Source: a virus. From it: a stretch of 64,000 bases of DNA. A model generated the notes under the pieces. It did no database searches and had not been told where the DNA came from. It worked only from the letters and a program-made list of their open reading frames with translations. Below are positions 448 to 64,000 of this stretch, one piece after another. The stretch is from positions 26,101 through 90,100 of IMG/VR virus record IMGVR_UViG_3300042988_000510; one strand, 5' to 3'. The position numbers and the translations under genes are program-made. Each line of letters starts with the position of its first letter. Position 1 is the first letter of the stretch.

Positions 448-1551
448 ATGATCATTACGGCAACACGCGAAACCCTGCTTGGCCCGCTGACGGCGGCCAT
501 GCCGGCGGTCAAGAAATCGACCCTACCGATCCTCAGCAACATGCTGCTGGACGCGCAGGCCGATGGCTTGCACATAACGGCCACCGATCTGGACACGCAG
601 ATTCGGTGCATGGTGGATGTCACCACTGAGCAACTGGGTGGTGTCACTCTGCCTGCTCGCAAGCTGCTGGACATCGTCAAACTGGCGCCAGCGGGCTCGA
701 CCATCAAACTGGCTACTGCCGATCTGGGCAAGCTCCGGGTGCAGGCGGGACCGTCGCGGTACACGCTGGCCACGTTGCCAGTTGAGAACTTCCCATCGTT
801 CGACCCGGGCGACATCATGCAGACGCTGGAGTTGCCGGCCGATGTCCTGTTGAAGGCGTTCAAGCGGGTGTCCTTCTGCGCGGCGGTCAACGACGTGCGC
901 TACTTCCTCAACGGGGTGGCGATTCGGCTGTTGGCGCATGAACTCGAGACGGCGGCCAGTGACGGTCATCGGCTGGCCGTGATGCAAACCCCATTGGCCG
1001 AACCGCCGGATGTCCCGAGCGACAGGCACCGCATCCTGCCCCGTGATTCGGTGCTGGCCATGATGAAGTTCCTGGCTGATGCCAAGACGGGCGCGGTCAA
1101 GCTCCAGATCGGGGACCGCACTGCGAGTATCACCATCAGTGATCAGCAGTTCTCGACCCGGCTGGTTGAGGGCGCTTATCCCAACATTCAGCGGGTCATA
1201 CCCAAGGACACCACGACGCACTTCATCGTGCCTGTGGCCGATATGCTGGCGTCGATTGCCAGGGCCGGCGTCGTCAGGGAGGGCAAGGACAACCCCATCC
1301 AGGTAGCCATCGAGCAGGACTCCCTGACCATCGAGGCGGCCAATGCTGCAGGCGATGATGCGCGGGAGGTGCTGCCAATCAATCTGGATGGCACTCCACT
1401 GACGTTGGGCTTCAACGGCAGCTATCTGGCCGAGTCGCTGGGTCAAGTCGATGCCGATACCGCCGAGTTCAAACTGCGGGATAACTCCGGGCTGGTGCTG
1501 GACCCCAGTGAGCCGGGGTGGCTGTCGGTTGTCATGCCGATGCGGTTATGA
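448..1551 (+). CDS. dnaN: DNA polymerase III beta sliding clamp
   Basis: Motifs TLPILSN, ATDLD, DVRYFLNG, ASDGHRLA, GAYPNIQRVIP, GFNGSYL and C-terminal VVMPMRL; start moved to ATG 448 (MIITATRETLL). Confidence 0.95.
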   Translation: MIITATRETLLGPLTAAMPAVKKSTLPILSNMLLDAQADGLHITATDLDTQIRCMVDVTTEQLGGVTLPARKLLDIVKLAPAGSTIKLATADLGKLRVQAGPSRYTLATLPVENFPSFDPGDIMQTLELPADVLLKAFKRVSFCAAVNDVRYFLNGVAIRLLAHELETAASDGHRLAVMQTPLAEPPDVPSDRHRILPRDSVLAMMKFLADAKTGAVKLQIGDRTASITISDQQFSTRLVEGAYPNIQRVIPKDTTTHFIVPVADMLASIARAGVVREGKDNPIQVAIEQDSLTIEAANAAGDDAREVLPINLDGTPLTLGFNGSYLAESLGQVDADTAEFKLRDNSGLVLDPSEPGWLSVVMPMRL

Positions 1552-26132: not shown

Positions 26133-29084
26133 ATGAGCCTCGAAACCGAAGTCGCGTCTTTAACCACAGCCACCACCAATCTGCTGAATGCAGTCACCAC
26201 CAGCAAAGACACGCTGGATCAGGCTGTGGCGACTGCCCAAGCCAAAGCGATTCTGGCGCAGGATGCCGCTGATACCGCCACGGGTCAGGCCAATAGCACG
26301 TTCTCGTCGGCGCTTACTGCTCAGACCGCAGCAGCCAATGCCGTGGCCGTGACCACGGGCGGCACTGCGTCACTGACGTCATCCGCAGGGAGAATCCCGA
26401 TTGCCGATGCCGCTGGCAAGATCGATCCTGGGTATGTAGACCTGCTGGCGGGCGGGGTGCTGCCGCTGCATCGATCCCCCAATGCCATTACGGCGATGTT
26501 CATCTATGACACCAGCAAGGACTCGGATGGGGGCGCCTGGACTGAGCGGTGCCAACATCTGTCCTGGTATCAGGAAAGCATCAATGGCAAATGGCTTGGG
26601 GCTCACCCCAGCGAGTTGTCGGCCCGGTGCCACAATGCGGTACTCGGCACCGAGAAGGTTTCCAACGGTGACTTCACCACCGATTTGACGGGATGGACCG
26701 CCTCGGCTGGTGCATCAGTGGTATCCAGCGCGCTCAATCTGGTCACCAGCAGTGCCACAGATGAGACATGCAAGCAGACGCTCACCACGGTTGCTTCGAC
26801 TAATTATGTTCTGACGTTCACCAAGGTTAGTGCCCCGGGAAACGCGACCGATCTCAGTATCACTGTCGGCACCAGTGACGGCGGCAGCCAGTTGTTGAAT
26901 CTGGCCAGCATCGGTGCGCTTGGTGCTGGGACTTACTCTTATGCGTTCACCGCCACGACGGCCACCAGCTTCCTGCGGTTCACCAATGCCACCGATACGG
27001 CGGCGACGGTCATCATCGATAGTGTGACTGTCAAGCCGGTAACGACTCAAGTATCCACGACCGGTGACTACTTTCAACTCACGACAGATGGCAAGTTTTA
27101 CTCGTTGAATGCCGGTTCTGGCACGACTCAGGTTTACCGGGGCAACAAGCGGGCGTTCCCTAAGTTGGCGGCGATTGTCGCTGAGGCAACCAATCTCACG
27201 ATCTACGACCTGACGGAAGCGGGCAGGCCGATGTGGATGCGGTTTTTTGGGCAGAGTGGTATATCCATGGTGATATACAGTGCTGCCTCTTGTGTGTCGG
27301 CGCTAAACGGCATCATGCTGGTCGGTGACTCTACGTTCGACTTGAACAGGATAGATTTCTTGCGGGATAACGGAAACAGGTTTGGCAATACGAATGTAAG
27401 TGCCCCGTACAAGGGCAACATCGCATCACGGAATGCCTTATTGGGTTGGTCTGCGGTTGATTCTAGTCTGGGCTGGATTGCATCCCGAGCTATCAACGCG
27501 GTCGCCATGACGGTCCTACCCGATGCTCCAACCCATCCGGCGACTGGACTGAAAATCCCTACCATTGCCGTAGCCACGGGGGGCGGGATCAGTATCATTC
27601 AGAATTCTGGAGTAGTCAGGAGTTCATCCAGCACGTCCGCCTTTACCCAGGTCACCCTCACGCCTCAGTTTCTATCTGCGGGTCGCGCTGATGCGGTTTG
27701 GTATTACGCGGCATCCCCTGGTGCCTTGGGTGCCTCGTTTGCCTTATCCACCAAAAACGCGAGTACCGCCACCGATTTCAACGTCGGTAACACGACGCTG
27801 CTGAGGGCCAGAGACCGTTCGACTCTGACTCGCACATCAAGTGCCATTGTGCAGATGCTGCGCAACAATGAAGGCGCTATCGGCAAAGGCATCGCGGCGA
27901 CAGTCTCCGATACTTACAACACCGGTTGGATGGTTGGCGATATTCGGCGGGCGTATCTAGCTAACTCAAAAACCGCTGATCGCAGTTACAAGGGGGCGAC
28001 GGCAACTGAGACCGGTACGGTAACCAGCGCGGTCGCCAACACCTCCACCGACCTTCTGGCCTACTCTGGGTTTAGTGGGTCGAACTATATCCGGGAAGCG
28101 TACTCGGCTGACTTGGACTTCGGCACTGGCGAGTGGACGTGCAGCGCGTGGGTGAATATCCCCACCGGAAATGCGGCTGCGGGGACGATTGTTTGCCGAG
28201 AGCACAGTTCGGGGGCTTACATTCGGCTGGGCATCAACGCCACGAATAAGCTGGTTGCCACGGTTTACGATGGCACTACTACCCGCACTGCCACCACATC
28301 GATGAGCTACAACTCGGCCACATGGGTTAAGGCCCGCGCCAACTACACCACTGACGGCAGGGTTGCCATCGCGGTGAACGGGGTTGAGGTCGTGGCTACT
28401 ACGGGCGCGGCGCTCCTCACCCTGAACAATGGCAGTGCGGTGCTGACTATGGGCAACTCCTACGCCCTCGATGCACCGTTCCCTGGCTCCATCACTCTGT
28501 TGAAGTTTTCGGCATCGGTACCCAGTGCAGAGCAGGCCCTGTTCATGTACGAGCAGGAGAAGCATCTGTTCAGCGCGTCGGCTAAGTGTGTGCTCCCGGC
28601 AAGCACAAACGTCCTGGACATGGCTTACGACGATGAAACCGATACGTGGGCTACGTTGCAGGCTACGCATGAGTCCACATGGTCTGGTCTGGTTCGTGCC
28701 TCAACGCAAACCCCGAGCGCAGGGTCATTCGCAAAAACCGCAGCGGGCGCTGGCAACAAGTTGCTGTCACGCACAACGGTCAGTCCGGGTGTTGACGTGC
28801 AAATGCCTTCTCGCGTGCTGAGACGAGAGCTTCGCCGCCGGCGAGAGGCCGCGAGCCAGGACCTTGTGGCGTTCGATTTTGATGCCGTGACTTCGCAGAC
28901 CGATTTCGTGTTGCCCGTAGGGTATGTCGCACGGGTGGTGTACTCGGCTGGGGCGCAGAAACGCATCGGTAGCACCAAGGATTATGTGCTCGTCAGTGAT
29001 GGGTTCCGTGAAACCGTCCGCTTTGCCGTCGCTCCGGGGAACACTGTCTGGGTCCAAATTCACGCAGTCCGCGAGGTGGCGTAA
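26133..29084 (+). CDS. Large tail spike/fibre with carbohydrate-binding and LamG-like domains
   Basis: RBS GAGGA before ATG 26133; VSNGDFTTDLTGW CBM-like start; LDFGTGEWTCSAWV LamG-like segment. Confidence 0.8.
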   Translation: MSLETEVASLTTATTNLLNAVTTSKDTLDQAVATAQAKAILAQDAADTATGQANSTFSSALTAQTAAANAVAVTTGGTASLTSSAGRIPIADAAGKIDPGYVDLLAGGVLPLHRSPNAITAMFIYDTSKDSDGGAWTERCQHLSWYQESINGKWLGAHPSELSARCHNAVLGTEKVSNGDFTTDLTGWTASAGASVVSSALNLVTSSATDETCKQTLTTVASTNYVLTFTKVSAPGNATDLSITVGTSDGGSQLLNLASIGALGAGTYSYAFTATTATSFLRFTNATDTAATVIIDSVTVKPVTTQVSTTGDYFQLTTDGKFYSLNAGSGTTQVYRGNKRAFPKLAAIVAEATNLTIYDLTEAGRPMWMRFFGQSGISMVIYSAASCVSALNGIMLVGDSTFDLNRIDFLRDNGNRFGNTNVSAPYKGNIASRNALLGWSAVDSSLGWIASRAINAVAMTVLPDAPTHPATGLKIPTIAVATGGGISIIQNSGVVRSSSSTSAFTQVTLTPQFLSAGRADAVWYYAASPGALGASFALSTKNASTATDFNVGNTTLLRARDRSTLTRTSSAIVQMLRNNEGAIGKGIAATVSDTYNTGWMVGDIRRAYLANSKTADRSYKGATATETGTVTSAVANTSTDLLAYSGFSGSNYIREAYSADLDFGTGEWTCSAWVNIPTGNAAAGTIVCREHSSGAYIRLGINATNKLVATVYDGTTTRTATTSMSYNSATWVKARANYTTDGRVAIAVNGVEVVATTGAALLTLNNGSAVLTMGNSYALDAPFPGSITLLKFSASVPSAEQALFMYEQEKHLFSASAKCVLPASTNVLDMAYDDETDTWATLQATHESTWSGLVRASTQTPSAGSFAKTAAGAGNKLLSRTTVSPGVDVQMPSRVLRRELRRRREAASQDLVAFDFDAVTSQTDFVLPVGYVARVVYSAGAQKRIGSTKDYVLVSDGFRETVRFAVAPGNTVWVQIHAVREVA

Positions 29085-59545: not shown

Positions 59546-60253
59546 CTACCATGGGTAAATGCTATGTCGTGAATTGTGCATTTCAATGCGCTCGACAAGA
59601 ACCTGTGTTCTCGCCTCCTTTGTTGCAGGCAGATATGTCCCTTTCCATTTCTTGTCTATCCCGATATTGCGGGCGACATTCGTAGAGTCGGCACTCGAGA
59701 AGGGCCACTCCGTATAAATCCTCGGATTCAACATTCGCAATCCGTGTAGCTTGCAGTTTGGCCTCCCATCTTCGTCGCAAATATGCGGCAGGACATCCAT
59801 AAGACGCGCATTCAATTTGGCTACATTGGATGCGTCATATTCACCGCTACTGCCAAGCGCGACTAGGGGCCATTCGCGTGAAAGCCTAACCAACCTATCA
59901 ATGGATTCATTTGTATGCCAAACGGCAGCGCCTTCATGCCGGTGGAATGGCCACTCACGCAAAAGCGCATCGTTATCTTCTTCTGAGCCTTCTATCACGT
60001 CTGGAATGACGGCAAAATCGAACCCTGGGTGACGCACCCACTTACCAACGTAAGCGTAATAATCCAGCCATTTAACGGGCTTTCCAGCTTTCCATAGCGA
60101 GAATGCACCGTTATCCAGCGCAAAGGATTGCGTACAGCCGGCCGCAACTTCCGTCTGGTCAGGGTGAGCAAAGCTGATGAAAGCATGCCGTCCAGTCCAT
60201 GCGCGAACCGCGCATGTCTCTGGAGTGATCGGCCCGCCATGGTAGTGAATCAC
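59546..60253 (-). CDS. TGT/DpdA-like fold protein (MIHYHG family)
   Basis: ALDNGAFS, VIPDVI, VWH, LHGLRM and SADST motifs parallel those of tRNA-guanine transglycosylase-like proteins; coupled to queD. Confidence 0.65.
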   Translation of the reverse strand: MIHYHGGPITPETCAVRAWTGRHAFISFAHPDQTEVAAGCTQSFALDNGAFSLWKAGKPVKWLDYYAYVGKWVRHPGFDFAVIPDVIEGSEEDNDALLREWPFHRHEGAAVWHTNESIDRLVRLSREWPLVALGSSGEYDASNVAKLNARLMDVLPHICDEDGRPNCKLHGLRMLNPRIYTEWPFSSADSTNVARNIGIDKKWKGTYLPATKEARTQVLVERIEMHNSRHSIYPW

Positions 60254-60654
60254 TCCTTGTGTACTCCGTGATAAAGCCCTTCACCATTCACCGCCATAGC
60301 CCAACAACGATCTGTTTCCCAAACTTTCACCGAGTGCAGGTATTGCAATTCTGGCGCTTTCAAAATCCACTCTGCGATATTCTCGGCTGTCGGATTATCA
60401 ATAATGTCGTTTAGGTATTGATGGTCAAGCTGTTTGATGATTGGATTCATCAACTTGTCTACCTTGGCGAAGTCCAATCCAGCACAAAAGCCATTCGGCT
60501 CAAATGTGTCTCCGCGAACTTCGACCTCGACTCGATAGTTATGCCCATGAAGTCTGTAACACTGGTGGTCTTCTGGCATGCGCAAAAGCCTGTGAGCAGC
60601 GGAAAATGTGTAAATCCTGCCGATGCGTGAATACTGCCAAGTACGCTTCATCAC
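60250..60654 (-). CDS. queD: 6-carboxytetrahydropterin synthase
   Basis: FSAAHRL, CYRLHGHNY, LDHQYLN, NPTAENIA and VWET motifs. Confidence 0.95.
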   Translation of the reverse strand: MMKRTWQYSRIGRIYTFSAAHRLLRMPEDHQCYRLHGHNYRVEVEVRGDTFEPNGFCAGLDFAKVDKLMNPIIKQLDHQYLNDIIDNPTAENIAEWILKAPELQYLHSVKVWETDRCWAMAVNGEGLYHGVHKE

Positions 60655-61503: not shown

Positions 61504-63042
61504 TCATGCGGCTTTTTTGCCTTTCTTGCTTTCTGGCTTTTTCTCAATCAGCAGGTCGGACTGGATGAACCGCAGTTCCCGTTTGGCCCGGGTGATGCCG
61601 ACGTAGCGCAGGTTGGTTTCCTGCTCGAGTTGCCATGCTTGTTTTGCACACTTCAGCGGGATCAGATCGGCGTCGAGGAACCAGACCCGGTCGGACTCAA
61701 GTCCCTTGGATTTGTGGATTGAGCAGAGCGTGATGGCCTGCCGGTTCTTGTCGTCATCCGAGAACATGGCTTCGATGCTGCGGATCAGGTCCGGGACTGT
61801 CTTGACGGTGGTGCGCTCGACGATGGCATGGATGCAGTTCACTTTGTCGTTGACCGCCTCGACCATGTCGTCACGCTCATCCTTGGCCCACCGCTTGACC
61901 TCGGTCTGCTGCCACTCGCCCAGCTTTTCGAGCAAGCCGTGAGCGCCCTTGATGCCTTTCGGCTGGAGCTTCTCGATCAGCTTGACCAGACCGCCACCGA
62001 TGTCTCGGCCGAGGATGCGGGCCGGGATGCCTTGCGAGATCAGCTTCCAAGCCAGGGAGATAACCGGGGCGTTCCGGCGGCAGATCACCATGTCGCCGCC
62101 CTGGAGTTCGGTCAATTCCCAGGCCGCTACCTGCTGGACCTCGCCGTCTGGCGCTGTCTCGGATGCCTCGATGCTCGGCATGACCTGCTGGGCTGCTGCT
62201 ACCACGGCTTTGGCGCATCGGTAGCTGATGGAAAGGGGCAGTTCGTCCGCATCGAACTTGTGGCGCAAGGTGTTCATCGCCTCGGCGTCCGATCCGCTGA
62301 AGCCGTAGACCGCCTGGCTTTTATCGCCGACCGCGATCAGTCGGCCGCCTTCTTTCAGGACCAAGCTGACCAGCTTGGTCCGCACCGGGCTGACGTCCTG
62401 GGCTTCGTTGACGAAGACCCAGTCGTAGCGGTCGTTCGAGAACTCGCGGATCGCCGGTATGTAGATCTGGTCGTCGAAGTCGATGACCCGCTTGTCGGCG
62501 GCCAGGTTGATGCTGGCCTGCACGCAGACCCGGGTGTAGTCGATCACCGTCTGCCTGACGTACTTGTCGACCGGAACCCCGAAGTGCTCGATCAGGTACT
62601 GCCAGGACTCGGCGTTATCCTCCATCAGCGGCACACCCTTGCAGCCCTGCGGCACCAGTCCCATGCGGCGCACGTAGCCACACAGGGCCATGACCGGCTC
62701 GGCAAATTCCCGGTAGTCGAACTTGTCGACGATCTGTTCGCGGACCAGCTTGCGGAGCTTGCCGCTATCGAGGATCGGGCGATTGATGCGGCTGGCCAGG
62801 ATGCTGTGGCCAAGACCGTTGAATGTCTTGACGTCGACGTGCTTGGGGGCACGCTGCTGGAGTTCGTCGGCGATTGATCGGTTGAATGCCAGCATCAGGA
62901 CCGACCGGCCTTCCGGGATCAGTTCCAGGGCCTTAATGATCGTCGTGGTTTTTCCACTCCCGGCGCAGGCTTGTATAACAGCACTGCCTGTACCGTCGGT
63001 GATGAAATCGAATACCGCTTGCTGGTACTTGCTTGGTTTCAT
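61504..63042 (-). CDS. UvrD/Rep-like SF1 helicase with variant Walker B
   Basis: ACAGSGKTTT, NEAQD, VGDKSQAVYGF, SYRC, SIHKSKGLE and YVGITRAK motifs; start MKPSKYQ at 63042. Confidence 0.9.
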   Translation of the reverse strand: MKPSKYQQAVFDFITDGTGSAVIQACAGSGKTTTIIKALELIPEGRSVLMLAFNRSIADELQQRAPKHVDVKTFNGLGHSILASRINRPILDSGKLRKLVREQIVDKFDYREFAEPVMALCGYVRRMGLVPQGCKGVPLMEDNAESWQYLIEHFGVPVDKYVRQTVIDYTRVCVQASINLAADKRVIDFDDQIYIPAIREFSNDRYDWVFVNEAQDVSPVRTKLVSLVLKEGGRLIAVGDKSQAVYGFSGSDAEAMNTLRHKFDADELPLSISYRCAKAVVAAAQQVMPSIEASETAPDGEVQQVAAWELTELQGGDMVICRRNAPVISLAWKLISQGIPARILGRDIGGGLVKLIEKLQPKGIKGAHGLLEKLGEWQQTEVKRWAKDERDDMVEAVNDKVNCIHAIVERTTVKTVPDLIRSIEAMFSDDDKNRQAITLCSIHKSKGLESDRVWFLDADLIPLKCAKQAWQLEQETNLRYVGITRAKRELRFIQSDLLIEKKPESKKGKKAA

Positions 63043-63090
63043 GGCTTGTCTCGGTGGTTGCCCCGGGCGGAATGCTTGGGGCTTGGGGGA

Positions 63091-63132
63091 ATGATGCGCT
63101 TGATGGGGCGTCAAGTCAATAGCATTGCTATT
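63091..63132 (-). promoter_or_regulatory. Putative promoter TTGACT-17-CATCAT with a perfect operator at 63118-63132
   Basis: AATAGCATTGCTATT overlaps the -35 of the leftward helicase operon. Confidence 0.65.
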
Positions 63133-63664
63133 CAGTTTGGTGCGCTTCTATGCCTTGCTATGCCTTCCGATTCATCCCGAATCATTGCCTTGGTGAAAAC
63201 CCACCGGTACGCGGATCGATACAATCCGCGCCCGCTGTGCTTTCCACTGTTTTTCAATCTAACCCAGCGCATTGCGCGTCACATCGATCTCTTGCTGCGC
63301 GATTGGTGGAAAACCCACCGGTATCCGGCACTGTCACCAATGCCGGACCCGCTTTGCTTTCCAGTGCCTGGCCTTGCTCATCCGTGCCTATCGTCGCGCT
63401 CCACTGCATATCAGTGCCCTGGTGAAAACCCACCGGGAGAGCGGCTGTCTCCAACCGCTAACCCGCTTTGCTTTCCAACTCAGTGCATATCCCTACACTG
63501 CAGCACTACGCCCATCGCGGCCGATCTATTCGCTCCGTTTGGCAGGAAAACCCACCGAAAGCGACTCTCGAAAGAGCCGCTGACGCTTTGCTTTCCCTTT
63601 CGGTTCTGAGCACATCGGCTTGGCGCTATGCGCTGCACATACGAGCAGTGCCTGTATTCGCTTA
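63132..63664 (-). ncRNA. Array of five pentamer-periodic tracts separated by four conserved hairpins (candidate guide-RNA array)
   Basis: Hairpin units at 63195-63245, 63309-63362, 63424-63476 and 63546-63596; in-phase C on the plus strand in 56 of 63 pentamers. Confidence 0.8.
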
Positions 63665-64000
63665 CACGCCTGTCCGCACACCGGCCGGCATGCGCTGAGA
63701 GACGGCTGGCGGCTGATTGGCGGGGTTCACCCGGATGGGTGACTTGTCCTTAATGCTCTCCCGCTTGACGATGATTCTGGCCTGGACCTGATCGGCATCC
63801 CGCATGGTTTTGGTATCTGCCGGGGTGTTCTTGCTCAGGATCAAGGCCCGTTTCAACTTCTTGTCGGCGGATGACATATAGCTCTCGACCTGGGCCGCAT
63901 TTTCACTCGGCAGGAGGATGCGGTAGTTGCCCTTGGTCTGCGCCAGATACTTGCCCTCGCGGAGCAAGATTTTCCTGACGTAATCCACAGCCGACAATTC
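63662..64000 (-). CDS. Hypothetical basic protein, 5'-truncated by the window edge
   Basis: Frame is open to the window end; its stop codon abuts the first pentamer tract. Confidence 0.75.
   Translation of the reverse strand, partial: ELSAVDYVRKILLREGKYLAQTKGNYRILLPSENAAQVESYMSSADKKLKRALILSKNTPADTKTMRDADQVQARIIVKRESIKDKSPIRVNPANQPPAVSQRMPAGVRTGV

What the first reader, a model, noticed from the sequence alone, without database searches (positions are those of the whole stretch)
63195..63596. Four-copy hairpin with invariant base and covarying inner stem (likely processing/handle element)
Seen on the minus strand: GGAAAGCA[A/C]AGCG-[variable stem-loop]-CGGTGGGTTTTC. The outer arms can pair (GAAAGC/GTTTTC) around a conserved purine-rich internal loop (AAAG/GUGG). 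The inner stems differ completely in sequence yet still pair: plus-strand CGCGGAT/ATCCGCG, TCCGGCA/TGCCGGA, AGCGG/CCGCT, and AGCG-ACTCT/AGAG-C-CGCT. Unit spacing is 114, 115 and 122 nt. Compensatory variation points to selection on RNA structure. Inference: a protein-binding or nuclease site that delimits each pentamer tract.
Basis: partly seen in the sequence, partly recalled or inferred. Interest (0 to 1): 0.8.

Follow-up and report, generated by a model that had tools for sequence, protein, structure and literature searches.

The report
Hairpin tails of phage VIPR guides
The four hairpins are most likely the structured 3' ends of four guide RNAs of a phage VIPR system, a CRISPR-related RNA-guided DNA silencer described in 2026 preprints, so this is a real element of a known kind.

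Summary
Four about 52-nt hairpins lie on the minus strand, with invariant arms and different inner stems that still pair. They fold far better on the minus than on the plus strand and occur nowhere else in the 90-kb phage genome.

Sixteen more copies turned up in three other contigs. Pairing and compensatory changes across all 20 exceed the controls.

Each hairpin closes a tract of 12-16 pentamers (NN + G-C-A-like triplet). The pentamer register runs straight into the hairpin's 5' arm.

The array is linked in 4 of 4 loci to a 199-aa gene. That gene is homologous to Vipr of Escherichia phage SUSP1 (E 1.2e-25) and models as a Cas7/Csm3-like RAMP. A small winged-helix-like partner gene (vap) comes with it.

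This matches the published VIPR system: Vipr, vap, and vrRNAs made of a pentamer tract plus a structured 3' tail.

Differences from the studied SUSP1 type:
- the constant triplet is GCA-like, not GGY;
- the tail is a plain extended hairpin, not a pseudoknot;
- the locus carries two tail classes.

The scan has noted VIPR loci on at least 64 other genomes, GCA-type ones included. No RNA data and no target were obtained.

The parts
63546..63596 (-). Inner stem of 8-9 pairs with a UUCG loop.
   Evidence: (60.2 bits, E 5.9e-14)
63424..63476 (-). Tail hairpin of the second downstream vrRNA (unit 3).
   Evidence: (65.7 bits, E 1.7e-15)
63309..63362 (-). Tail hairpin of the third downstream vrRNA (unit 2).
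   Evidence: (61.8 bits, E 2.1e-14)
63195..63245 (-). Tail hairpin of the fourth downstream vrRNA (unit 1). Its 5' arm carries the single A-to-C change.
   Evidence: (50.6 bits, E 2.8e-11)
63597..63663 (-). Pentamer tract (guide part) of the first vrRNA. It begins at the stop codon of vap (63662-63664) and stays in one 5-nt register up to the tail.
63477..63545 (-). Pentamer tract of the second vrRNA: 14 variable pentamers, then AAGCA AAGCG inside the tail arm.
63363..63423 (-). Pentamer tract of the third vrRNA: 12 variable pentamers, all with G at position 3.
63246..63308 (-). Pentamer tract of the fourth vrRNA: 13 variable pentamers.
63121..63194 (-). Fifth pentamer tract: 14 pentamers, 13 with G at position 3. 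It has no class-A tail and may be a decayed or differently ended guide.
   Evidence: also the period-5 signal at 63108-63165
63662..64000 (-). C-terminal part of the accessory gene (vap-like). The gene continues across the contig junction. It is translationally downstream of vipr, which lies outside the window at genome 296-895 on the minus strand.

Best explanation
The four hairpins are the conserved 3' tails of four guide RNAs (vrRNAs) of a VIPR system carried by an about 90-kb freshwater phage.

**Locus, on the minus strand.**
- a promoter;
- three vrRNAs with another tail class (outside the window);
- vipr, a 199-aa RAMP protein (outside the window);
- vap;
- the four vrRNAs studied here;
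- a tail-less fifth tract.

**Each vrRNA.** It has 12-16 pentamers of the form NN + G-C-A-like triplet. The last three pentamers (xxGGA AAGCA AAGCG) are constant and pair back with CGGUGGGUUUUCC. This gives an extended hairpin with these parts:
- an outer helix;
- a purine-rich internal loop (AA over GG, plus one A-U pair);
- a short G-C helix, CG plus two covarying pairs;
- a second internal loop;
- a variable apical stem-loop.

**Inferred by homology with SUSP1.** One Vipr protomer binds each pentamer. It holds the constant triplet and exposes the NN pairs, which read double-stranded DNA with one base skipped per pentamer. [quoted passage not shown]

**My own inference.** The array abuts the vap stop codon and has no promoter-like site inside it. 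The four guides are therefore probably cut from one vipr-vap-array transcript at or near the tails.

**Shown versus inferred.** Shown: the anatomy, the fold conservation, the linkage to vipr and vap, and the Vipr homology and fold. Inferred: transcription, Vipr binding, capping, processing and DNA targeting.
For: **Structure.**
- All 20 copies from four loci give the same minimum-energy architecture.
- On a MAFFT alignment not fitted to the structure, 86.3% of cells pair, against 34.7-62.0% when partners are slid by 1-3 columns.
- There are 35 cells with changes on both sides, against 20.1 +/- 2.8 in shuffles (0 of 500 reach it).
- The covariation score is 0.267 against 0.148 (0 of 500).
- Covarying pairs lie in the short G-C helix (GC, CG, UA and AU types) and in the apical stem.
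- G-U pairs (17 of 20 at one outer pair, 15 of 20 at one apical pair) and the energy gap between strands fix the strand.

**Tract.** With the register anchored on the tail arm:
- pentamer positions 1-2 carry 0.01-0.08 bit;
- position 3 is G in 78% of 55 pentamers in the window and 75% of 262 in four loci;
- positions 4 and 5 prefer C and A.

**Linkage.** The array lies next to the same two genes in 4 of 4 loci, in two different orders. Period-5 tracts flank the gene in 18 of 20 further IMG/VR loci and in 0 of 2 control loci.

**Vipr.**
- It has one homologue in SUSP1 (28492-29058, E 1.2e-25, 30% identity over residues 4-197). That is CDS YP_009199429.1.
- The third preprint names that CDS Vipr.
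- It is flanked by one upstream and three downstream GGTNN tracts, as published.
- The AlphaFold model has pLDDT 97.6.
- Best structural matches are Csm3, Cmr4 and chains of type VII complexes: Foldseek E 6.5e-6; VIA Z 11.1-10.3 with rmsd 2.6-3.6 over 124-151 residues.

**Pockets.** The published contacts to G1 (D177), and R179, are invariant in the alignment. The published contacts to G2 and Y3 (R138, W178, E71, M72) are replaced in the GCA-type proteins. This fits a kept G and changed second and third bases.

**vap.** It shows weak similarity to the SUSP1 gene after vipr (E 2e-6 pairwise) and has a winged-helix-like N-terminal half (Z 5.5-6.7).
Against: **RNA.** There is no evidence that the stretch is transcribed or that RNA ends fall at the hairpins; no listed run is RNA.

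**Constant triplet.** It is not the published GGY, and in this window it is loose: position 4 is C in 42% and position 5 is A in 44%.

**Targets.** None was found, and no skip rule stood out in the small local search.

**Covariation limits.**
- The outer helix and the first two pairs of the G-C helix never vary, or vary on one side only. For them covariation says nothing, and 3 of 20 copies break one outer A-U pair.
- Two measures were not above shuffles: pairs with a change on both sides, 7, reached by 304 of 500; further pair types, 20, reached by 430 of 500.
- Two pairs I had put in the model (19:41 and 20:40) are unpaired in 19 and 15 of 20 copies.
- The copies are related to each other, so cell counts are not independent events.

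**Tail role.** The passages I read do not show that Vipr contacts the tail even in SUSP1. There the tail is a pseudoknot, which this one is not.
Confidence: 0.87

Rival explanations
1. The hairpins are mainly processing signals. A nuclease (Vipr itself acting like Cas6, or a host RNase such as RNase III or E) cuts a long precursor at each hairpin. Capping of the filament is secondary. This overlaps with the best explanation rather than excluding it.
For: - The array starts at the vap stop codon.
- No sigma-70-like site lies inside it: only one such site is on the minus strand of 62900-64000, at 63119..63091, after the array. One transcript would therefore have to give four guides.
- A conserved short word follows most tails.
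- Vipr is a RAMP, the fold of Cas6 (Cas6 chains at Z 6.2-6.4, well below the Csm3/Cmr4 rows).
- Other VIPR types use hammerhead ribozymes between guides, so cutting between guides is part of the system.
Against: - No RNA ends are known.
- The promoter scan covers sigma-70 consensus only.
- The Vipr model resembles backbone subunits (Csm3, Cmr4) more than Cas6.
- The sections and searched passages I read of the papers name no cleavage by Vipr.
Confidence: 0.3
2. The hairpins are ordinary intrinsic terminators or RNA-stabilising stem-loops, with no specific role in a Vipr complex.
For: - Each stem is followed by GGGUUUUC.
- The simple scan calls one of the four terminator-like.
- The next gene, the helicase, has its own promoter-like site.
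Against: - Only four U, and they are paired with the conserved GGAAA of the 5' arm in every fold.
- The arms are conserved letter for letter in contigs whose Vipr is only about 66-70% identical, while the stems drift. A generic terminator does not need that.
- Four terminators in a row inside 400 nt would be odd.
- The 5' arm continues the pentamer register.
Confidence: 0.07
3. The element works at the DNA level: iterons or cruciforms of a replication origin, a partition site or a recombination site.
For: - It is a repeated array in a long non-coding gap among replication and recombination genes (helicase, RecT-like and exonuclease genes nearby).
- There is a 10-nt periodicity just downstream.
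Against: - The pairing depends on G-U pairs and is much weaker on the other strand.
- The inner stems change sequence while keeping pairing.
- The array travels with vipr and vap, not with replication genes, in 4 of 4 loci.
Confidence: 0.03
4. The copies are a selfish dispersed repeat (REP or MITE type), or a CRISPR array with odd repeats.
For: Palindromic units with conserved ends, and alternation of conserved and variable segments with a period of 114-122 nt.
Against: - All copies are in one orientation and at one locus only.
- Rfam gave no match.
- The segments between hairpins are 5-nt periodic rather than free sequence.
- The hairpin stems differ between copies, unlike CRISPR repeats.
- I noticed no cas-like gene other than the lone RAMP among the ORFs I listed near the locus.
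Confidence: 0.02

Closest known systems
vrRNA 3' tail of type II VIPR systems (Escherichia phage SUSP1, Pseudomonas fulva prophage). Sources: bioRxiv 10.64898/2026.04.26.720920, 10.64898/2026.04.26.720927, 10.64898/2026.10.15.759431.
   Same: - It sits directly 3' of a tract of pentamers with a fixed triplet and free NN, on the vipr-sense strand.
- It is conserved between guides of one locus.
- Guides lie in arrays upstream and downstream of vipr-vap.
- Vipr is homologous (E 1.2e-25) with the same G-loop core (GDxRP..GR).
- More than one tail variant occurs in one locus, in SUSP1 too.
   Different: - The constant triplet is GCA-like instead of GGY.
- The tail is a single extended hairpin with two internal loops, not a pseudoknot. 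There is no loop-to-flank pairing above control (2.5 against 2.30 +/- 0.12).
- The apical stem differs between guides, whereas the SUSP1 tail is called invariable.
- The tail's 5' arm is made of the last three pentamers.
- Units are 114-122 nt against about 100 nt.
Non-canonical VIPR repeat units (bioRxiv 10.64898/2026.10.21.760802; 21 clusters with motifs such as GAC/NN, CAC/NN, WGT/NN and TGH/NN).
   Same: A five-base period, a fixed triplet other than GGY, and a Vipr-like fold next to the array.
   Different: GCA/NN is not named in the text I could search. Its figure S10 may list it; I could not see figures. That paper does not describe tails in the passages I read.
CRISPR repeat and crRNA handle of Class 1 systems (Cas6-type hairpin repeats).
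   Same: - A conserved structured element alternates with a variable guide segment.
- It is bound into a RAMP (Cas7-like) filament.
- It delimits guides in a multi-guide transcript.
   Different: - The guide segment is a 5-nt periodic code, not free sequence.
- The hairpin stems are not identical between copies.
- There is one RAMP gene only, with no cas1/cas2 and no Cas6.
- The system is phage-borne.
Intrinsic (Rho-independent) terminators.
   Same: A G+C-rich stem followed by a short U run.
   Different: The U run is only four long and is paired with a conserved A run. The flanks are conserved in sequence across loci. Four copies stand in tandem.

Membership tests
VIPR system (Vipr + vap + vrRNA) | A small (about 20 kDa) Vipr protein homologous to the published Vipr (SUSP1 YP_009199429.1), next to the RNA genes. 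| tested here: met
   - The 199-aa gene lies at genome 296-895 (minus strand), two genes upstream of the array.
- It has a single SUSP1 match, E 1.2e-25, 30% identity over residues 4-197, on CDS YP_009199429.1.
- The third preprint names that CDS Vipr.
VIPR system (Vipr + vap + vrRNA) | Vipr has the RAMP fold (RRM core, G-loop, thumb). | tested here: met
   - The model has pLDDT 97.6.
- Foldseek gives 75 matches at E <= 0.001. The top rows are chains of type VII and III-A complexes and Csm3.
- VIA gives Z 11.1 (rmsd 3.1 over 136 residues), then Cmr4 at Z 10.9 and Csm3 at Z 10.3; 27 chains reach Z >= 8.
- The G-loop GFGDFRPTFGR aligns with the SUSP1 G-loop, with D177 and R179 invariant.
- The thumb was not inspected separately.
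VIPR system (Vipr + vap + vrRNA) | vrRNA body: 9-16 tandem pentamers with a fixed trinucleotide and hypervariable NN. | tested here: met
   - Four tracts of 14-16 or so pentamers each keep one register.
- Positions 1-2 carry 0.04-0.05 bit in the window.
- Position 3 is G in 78% of 55 pentamers.
VIPR system, canonical (type II as studied) | The fixed trinucleotide is GGY. | tested here: not met
   - The triplet is G, then C (42-46%), then A (44-69%). Relatives show clean NNGCA.
- The discovery paper allows 'a related consensus' and names NNNGG, YNNNG and NNNNG.
- Another preprint reports other triplets.
VIPR system (Vipr + vap + vrRNA) | A conserved, structured tail directly 3' of each tract. 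| tested here: met
   In the window, 4 of 4 tracts before the tail-less fifth end in the hairpin.
VIPR, SUSP1 clade | The tail contains a pseudoknot. | tested here: inconclusive
   - The hairpin uses nearly all tail bases.
- Loop-to-3'-flank helices are no longer than with permuted flanks.
- Only this one kind of pseudoknot was tested, and the folding program does not predict pseudoknots.
VIPR system (Vipr + vap + vrRNA) | An accessory vap gene after vipr; in type II it is a predicted DNA-binding protein. | tested here: met
   - A gene follows vipr in 4 of 4 loci.
- Pairwise BLASTP to the SUSP1 gene after vipr gives E 2e-6, 31% over 95 residues.
- The model of the L003 homologue has pLDDT 87. 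Residues 1-79 resemble winged-helix domains at Z 5.5-6.7, which is middling.
- Foldseek gave nothing at E <= 0.001.
VIPR system (Vipr + vap + vrRNA) | About 100-nt RNAs are expressed and co-purify with Vipr. | not testable with these tools
   No RNA run is listed among 14 runs that hold the stretch or a part of it.
VIPR system (Vipr + vap + vrRNA) | The NN code matches natural DNA targets with one base skipped per pentamer. | tested here: inconclusive
   - Only local data could be searched.
- The own genome gave no match above shuffled order at skip 0-2.
- 100 guides against 469 kb showed no skip rule standing out: best fraction 0.71-0.72 for all, and nothing at 0.9 or more.
CRISPR array | Identical direct repeats separated by free-sequence spacers, with cas1/cas2 and effector genes. 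| tested here: not met
   - The hairpin stems differ between copies.
- The 'spacers' are 5-nt periodic.
- The only RAMP is the lone vipr.

The most novel reading that the evidence does not exclude
The hairpin is the working equivalent of a CRISPR repeat. A single vipr-vap-array transcript would be cut into guides at or beside each hairpin, by Vipr itself or by a host RNase that reads the conserved arms and the AA/GG internal loop. The apical stem would be kept different between neighbouring units so that adjacent tails cannot mispair or recombine. Tail plus tract arrays of this GCA-type clade would then be a living intermediate between single vrRNA genes and CRISPR repeat-spacer arrays.
Probability: 0.2. 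Interest if true: 0.6.

Novelty: new member of a known kind. Interest (0 to 1): 0.35.

Why it matters
VIPR was described only in 2026 preprints, as an RNA-guided DNA silencer older than CRISPR.

This locus adds a well-defined tail family: 20 copies in four loci, a covariance model, and clear compensatory changes. It belongs to a clade that uses a GCA-like rather than GGY constant triplet.

It also shows which published base-contact residues of Vipr stay and which change with the triplet. That gives a direct handle on how the constant part of the code is read.

Three questions about the tail can be asked with ordinary experiments in a laboratory strain:
- what the tail is for;
- whether its sequence or only its shape matters;
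- how multi-guide transcripts are cut.

As a finding of the scan it is not new in kind. The scan has met VIPR loci many times, GCA-type ones included.

Tried and rejected
**Ideas considered before the relatives were found, and dropped**
- N4-type hairpin promoters: the stems and loops are too long, and four in tandem is unlike them.
- Integron attC sites: no GTTRRRY core, and no cassettes between the copies.
- REP elements: one orientation and one locus only.
- Type III antitoxin RNA repeats: the units are not identical tandem copies.
- RNA anti-CRISPR or CRISPR repeats: the stems differ between copies.
- A TRAP-like ring protein reading a triplet every 5 nt. This was right in spirit, but the protein is a RAMP filament.

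These comparisons rest on my own knowledge of those families, not on a call.

**Searches that gave nothing**
- Rfam at the gathering threshold on the whole window, and at E up to 10 on 62900-64000.
- blastn and megablast against 50,697 phage records.
- The strict two-arm pattern in viral contigs.
- Relatives found through the helicase: only 2 loci at 31-34% identity, with no gap or repeats upstream.
- No RNA holder listed among 14 sequencing runs, so I did not use read laying.

**Targets**
- No self-target in the own genome. The best skip-1 scores were 16-18 of 24-28 letters, within the shuffled-order range. Skip 3 only finds the guide's own gene.
- 100 guides against 469 kb of held sequence showed no rule standing out.
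- The tract detector gives some false tracts, for example one inside a vipr gene, so its counts are not used as evidence.

**Pseudoknot.** A loop-to-flank test was negative.

**In print?** I could not establish whether GCA/NN is in print. 'GCA' has 0 occurrences in the main texts of three of the four preprints. I did not search the fourth for it. Figures S17 and S10, and all supplements, were not visible to me.
Full report
**1. The observation**

The region 63044-63661 is a 620-nt non-coding gap on a minus-strand operon. It lies between a small ORF that ends at 63662 and a UvrD-like helicase gene at 61504-63042.

On the minus strand there are four units of the form GGAAAGCA[A/C]AGCG - variable stem-loop - CGGTGGGTTTTC. 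They sit at 63546-63596, 63424-63476, 63309-63362 and 63195-63245, spaced 114, 115 and 122 nt apart.

The arms are more frequent than chance (6 matches against 1.78 +/- 1.24, 0 of 100 shuffles). They occur as a pair only here in the whole 90,100-base record.

Each unit folds into one long hairpin on the minus strand:
- energies of -28.5 to -38.1 kcal/mol;
- z-scores of -3.6 to -5.7;
- 0 of 200 shuffles as good.

The plus strand folds much less well (-15.0 to -23.6 kcal/mol; z -0.6 to -2.5).

Rfam has no match.

**2. The genome**

The window is the last 64 kb of a single 90.1-kb contig. Its ends overlap by 138 nt, with 137 identical. The record is a virus record rated 98% complete, and the best DNA holders are freshwater metagenomes.

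The small ORF therefore continues across the junction. Upstream of it lies a 199-aa gene at genome 296-895 on the minus strand.

**3. Relatives of the hairpin**

A two-arm pattern found one contig of a Fluviibacter MAG (L003) and two metagenome contigs (L004, L005).

A looser match gives 4, 7 and 5 copies there. With the window's four, that makes 20 (one overlapping duplicate in L004 was dropped).

In all three contigs the array is followed by homologues of the 199-aa gene and of the small ORF. In the window's genome the array follows the two genes instead. The array is therefore tied to this gene pair, not to the helicase.

**4. Structure conservation**

On a MAFFT alignment of the 20 copies (A3), which was not fitted to any structure, my 20-pair structure gives:
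- 86.3% paired cells, against 34.7-62.0% for partners slid by 1-3 columns;
- 35 cells changed on both sides, against 20.1 +/- 2.8 in shuffles (0 of 500);
- a covariation score of 0.267 against 0.148 (0 of 500).

Results against the reading:
- Two measures are not above shuffles: 7 pairs with a change on both sides (reached by 304 of 500) and 20 further pair types (reached by 430 of 500).
- Six pairs never vary.
- Two pairs I had included are mostly unpaired.
- Three L005 copies break one outer A-U pair.

The compensatory changes sit in the short G-C helix (GG/CC, CA/UG, UG/CA) and in the apical stem.

A covariance model (R1) finds the 20 copies. It also finds five more at E <= 3e-6 in IMG/VR loci L019, L022, L027 and L028. 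The model-fitted alignment gives 87.8% paired cells and 82 double changes, but it leans towards the model.

All 20 copies give the same minimum-energy architecture.

**5. The segments between the hairpins**

With the register fixed by the tail arm (xxGGA AAGCA AAGCG), it holds back to the previous hairpin in every unit.

| Pentamer position | Content |
|---|---|
| 1-2 | nearly random: 0.04-0.05 bit in the window, 0.01-0.08 bit over four loci |
| 3 | G in 78% of 55 pentamers (window) and 75% of 262 (four loci) |
| 4 | C preferred |
| 5 | A preferred |

Relatives show very clean NNGCA runs of 11-13 units followed by a hairpin.

**6. The gene pair**

The 199-aa protein:
- matches phrog_4652, of unknown function, at E 8.5e-63;
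- has 886 homologues among 957 candidates;
- has 1631 cluster representatives at E <= 0.001.

It occurs in 130 phage records, among them Felixounavirus phages and Listonella phage phiHSIC.

Period-5 tracts lie beside the gene in 18 of 20 IMG/VR loci. They are absent from 2 of 2 control loci. In the 64-kb window they occur only in this gap.

Phage wV8 has GGTNN tracts and hairpins on both sides of the pair; there they are annotated only as direct repeats.

**7. What it is**

A full-text search led to bioRxiv 10.64898/2026.04.26.720920. I read its abstract, Results, Discussion and Methods sections 18, 20, 26 and 27. I saw no figures and no supplements.

It describes VIPR systems as follows:
- Vipr, a lone RAMP protein;
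- an accessory gene, vap;
- vrRNAs of about 100 nt, made of 9-16 pentamers with a fixed GGY and free NN, followed by a conserved structured 3' tail;
- the NN letters read double-stranded DNA with one base skipped per pentamer.

The window's 199-aa protein has one homologue in SUSP1 (E 1.2e-25). This is CDS YP_009199429.1, which the third preprint names Vipr (passages). It is flanked by one upstream and three downstream GGTNN tracts, as published.

The AlphaFold model (pLDDT 97.6) matches Csm3, Cmr4 and type VII complex chains:
- Foldseek E 6.5e-6;
- VIA Z 11.1 to 10.3.

The small ORF resembles the SUSP1 gene after vipr weakly (E 2e-6). Its homologue models with a winged-helix-like first half, at a middling Z of 5.5-6.7.

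The four hairpins are therefore vrRNA tails, and the tracts before them are the guide parts.

**8. How it probably works**

From the cryo-EM preprint 10.64898/2026.04.26.720927 (abstract, section 5 and passages):
- One Vipr protomer binds one pentamer.
- Two neighbouring protomers hold the GGY.
- The NN letters are presented for pairing.
- The 3' pseudoknot caps the RNA end.
- Subunits near that end are the best ordered, and R-loop formation proceeds from there towards the 5' end.

By homology I infer the same for this locus, with the hairpin as the cap and boundary.

In my alignment:
- The published G1 contact D177, and R179, are invariant.
- H17 is N in the GCA-type proteins.
- The G2 contacts R138 and W178 are A, V or F at 138 and F or L at 178.
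- The Y3 pocket residues E71 and M72 are W and L, V or I.

This fits a kept first G and changed second and third bases. It is an inference from an alignment, not a test.

The array starts at the vap stop codon, and the simple scan finds no promoter-like site inside it. I therefore infer one precursor that is cut into four guides. The sections and searched passages I read of the papers do not say how such arrays are matured.

**9. Differences from the studied type**

- The constant triplet is GCA-like.
- The tail is an extended hairpin, not a pseudoknot.
- Its apical stem differs between guides.
- Its 5' arm is formed by the last three pentamers.
- The same locus has three more guides upstream of vipr, with a second tail class that folds to a similar architecture.

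Non-GGY triplets are already reported in general terms. I could not tell whether GCA/NN is among them.

**10. What was not obtained**

- No RNA data.
- No target: local searches only.
- The public target search was left out, because it needs derived patterns to be typed.

**11. Earlier notes of the scan**

- The scan holds 67 notes on VIPR in at least 64 genomes.
- Two of them describe GCA-type arrays.
- There are notes on this same genome's vipr gene and pentamer tracts.
- I reached the preprint by my own search before reading those notes. They agree with my reading.

**12. Verdict**

This is a real, well-supported structured RNA element. It is a new member of a known kind, with variant features worth a specialist's look. 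Interest 0.35.

Noticed in passing
L006 (genome) about 950-1330, minus strand; outside the window: Three more pentamer tracts lie upstream of vipr. Each ends in a second tail class: ...CGCGG - variable hairpin - CCG(A/G)GG.., then a short second stem. These fold to a similar outer-helix / G-C helix / apical-stem architecture (-21.4 to -30.4 kcal/mol; z -3.2 to -6.0). The locus thus has seven tailed guides with two tail classes and one Vipr.
   Followed up: partly
window 63114-63132 (minus strand) and L006 about 1354-1380 (minus strand): The same near-palindrome (AATAGCA[A/T]TGCTATT) overlaps a TTGACT -35-like hexamer in two places. One is after the downstream array, before the helicase gene. 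The other is before the upstream guide set. It looks like a shared operator and promoter, so the guides and the helicase operon may answer to one repressor.
   Followed up: no
window 63121-63194, minus strand: A fifth pentamer tract (14 pentamers, 13 with G at position 3) follows the last hairpin but has no class-A tail and runs into the promoter-like site. It may be a decayed guide or one with another kind of end.
   Followed up: partly
L007 4614-4895 (Listonella phage phiHSIC, AY772740.1): The annotated ORF21 on the opposite strand is covered by three 100-104-nt units of clean NNGCA pentamers, directly after the vipr homologue (ORF22). The ORF is probably a mis-call over a vrRNA array.
   Followed up: partly
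L008 3762-3819 and 5155-5212 (Escherichia phage wV8, NC_012749.1): The record's 'DR_4' repeat regions lie in the GGTNN tract and hairpin regions on both sides of the vipr and vap homologues (genes 95 and 94). A VIPR locus was thus annotated only as direct repeats.
   Followed up: partly
window, directly 3' of each tail (for example 63189-63194 and 63303-63308), and the same place in L003-L005: A short conserved word (ACCAA, ATCGA or ACCGA) follows most tails and opens the next unit. It could be a cutting site or a 5' handle of the next guide.
   Followed up: no
window 59546-60654, minus strand: A queD-type gene (Pfam PTPS, E 4.4e-29) is followed by a 235-aa ORF without a Pfam match.
   Followed up: no
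contig ends (window 63863-64000 and genome 1-138): The contig's first 138 bases repeat its last 138, with one difference. The genome is therefore circular, circularly permuted or terminally redundant, although the collection classes it as linear.
   Followed up: partly
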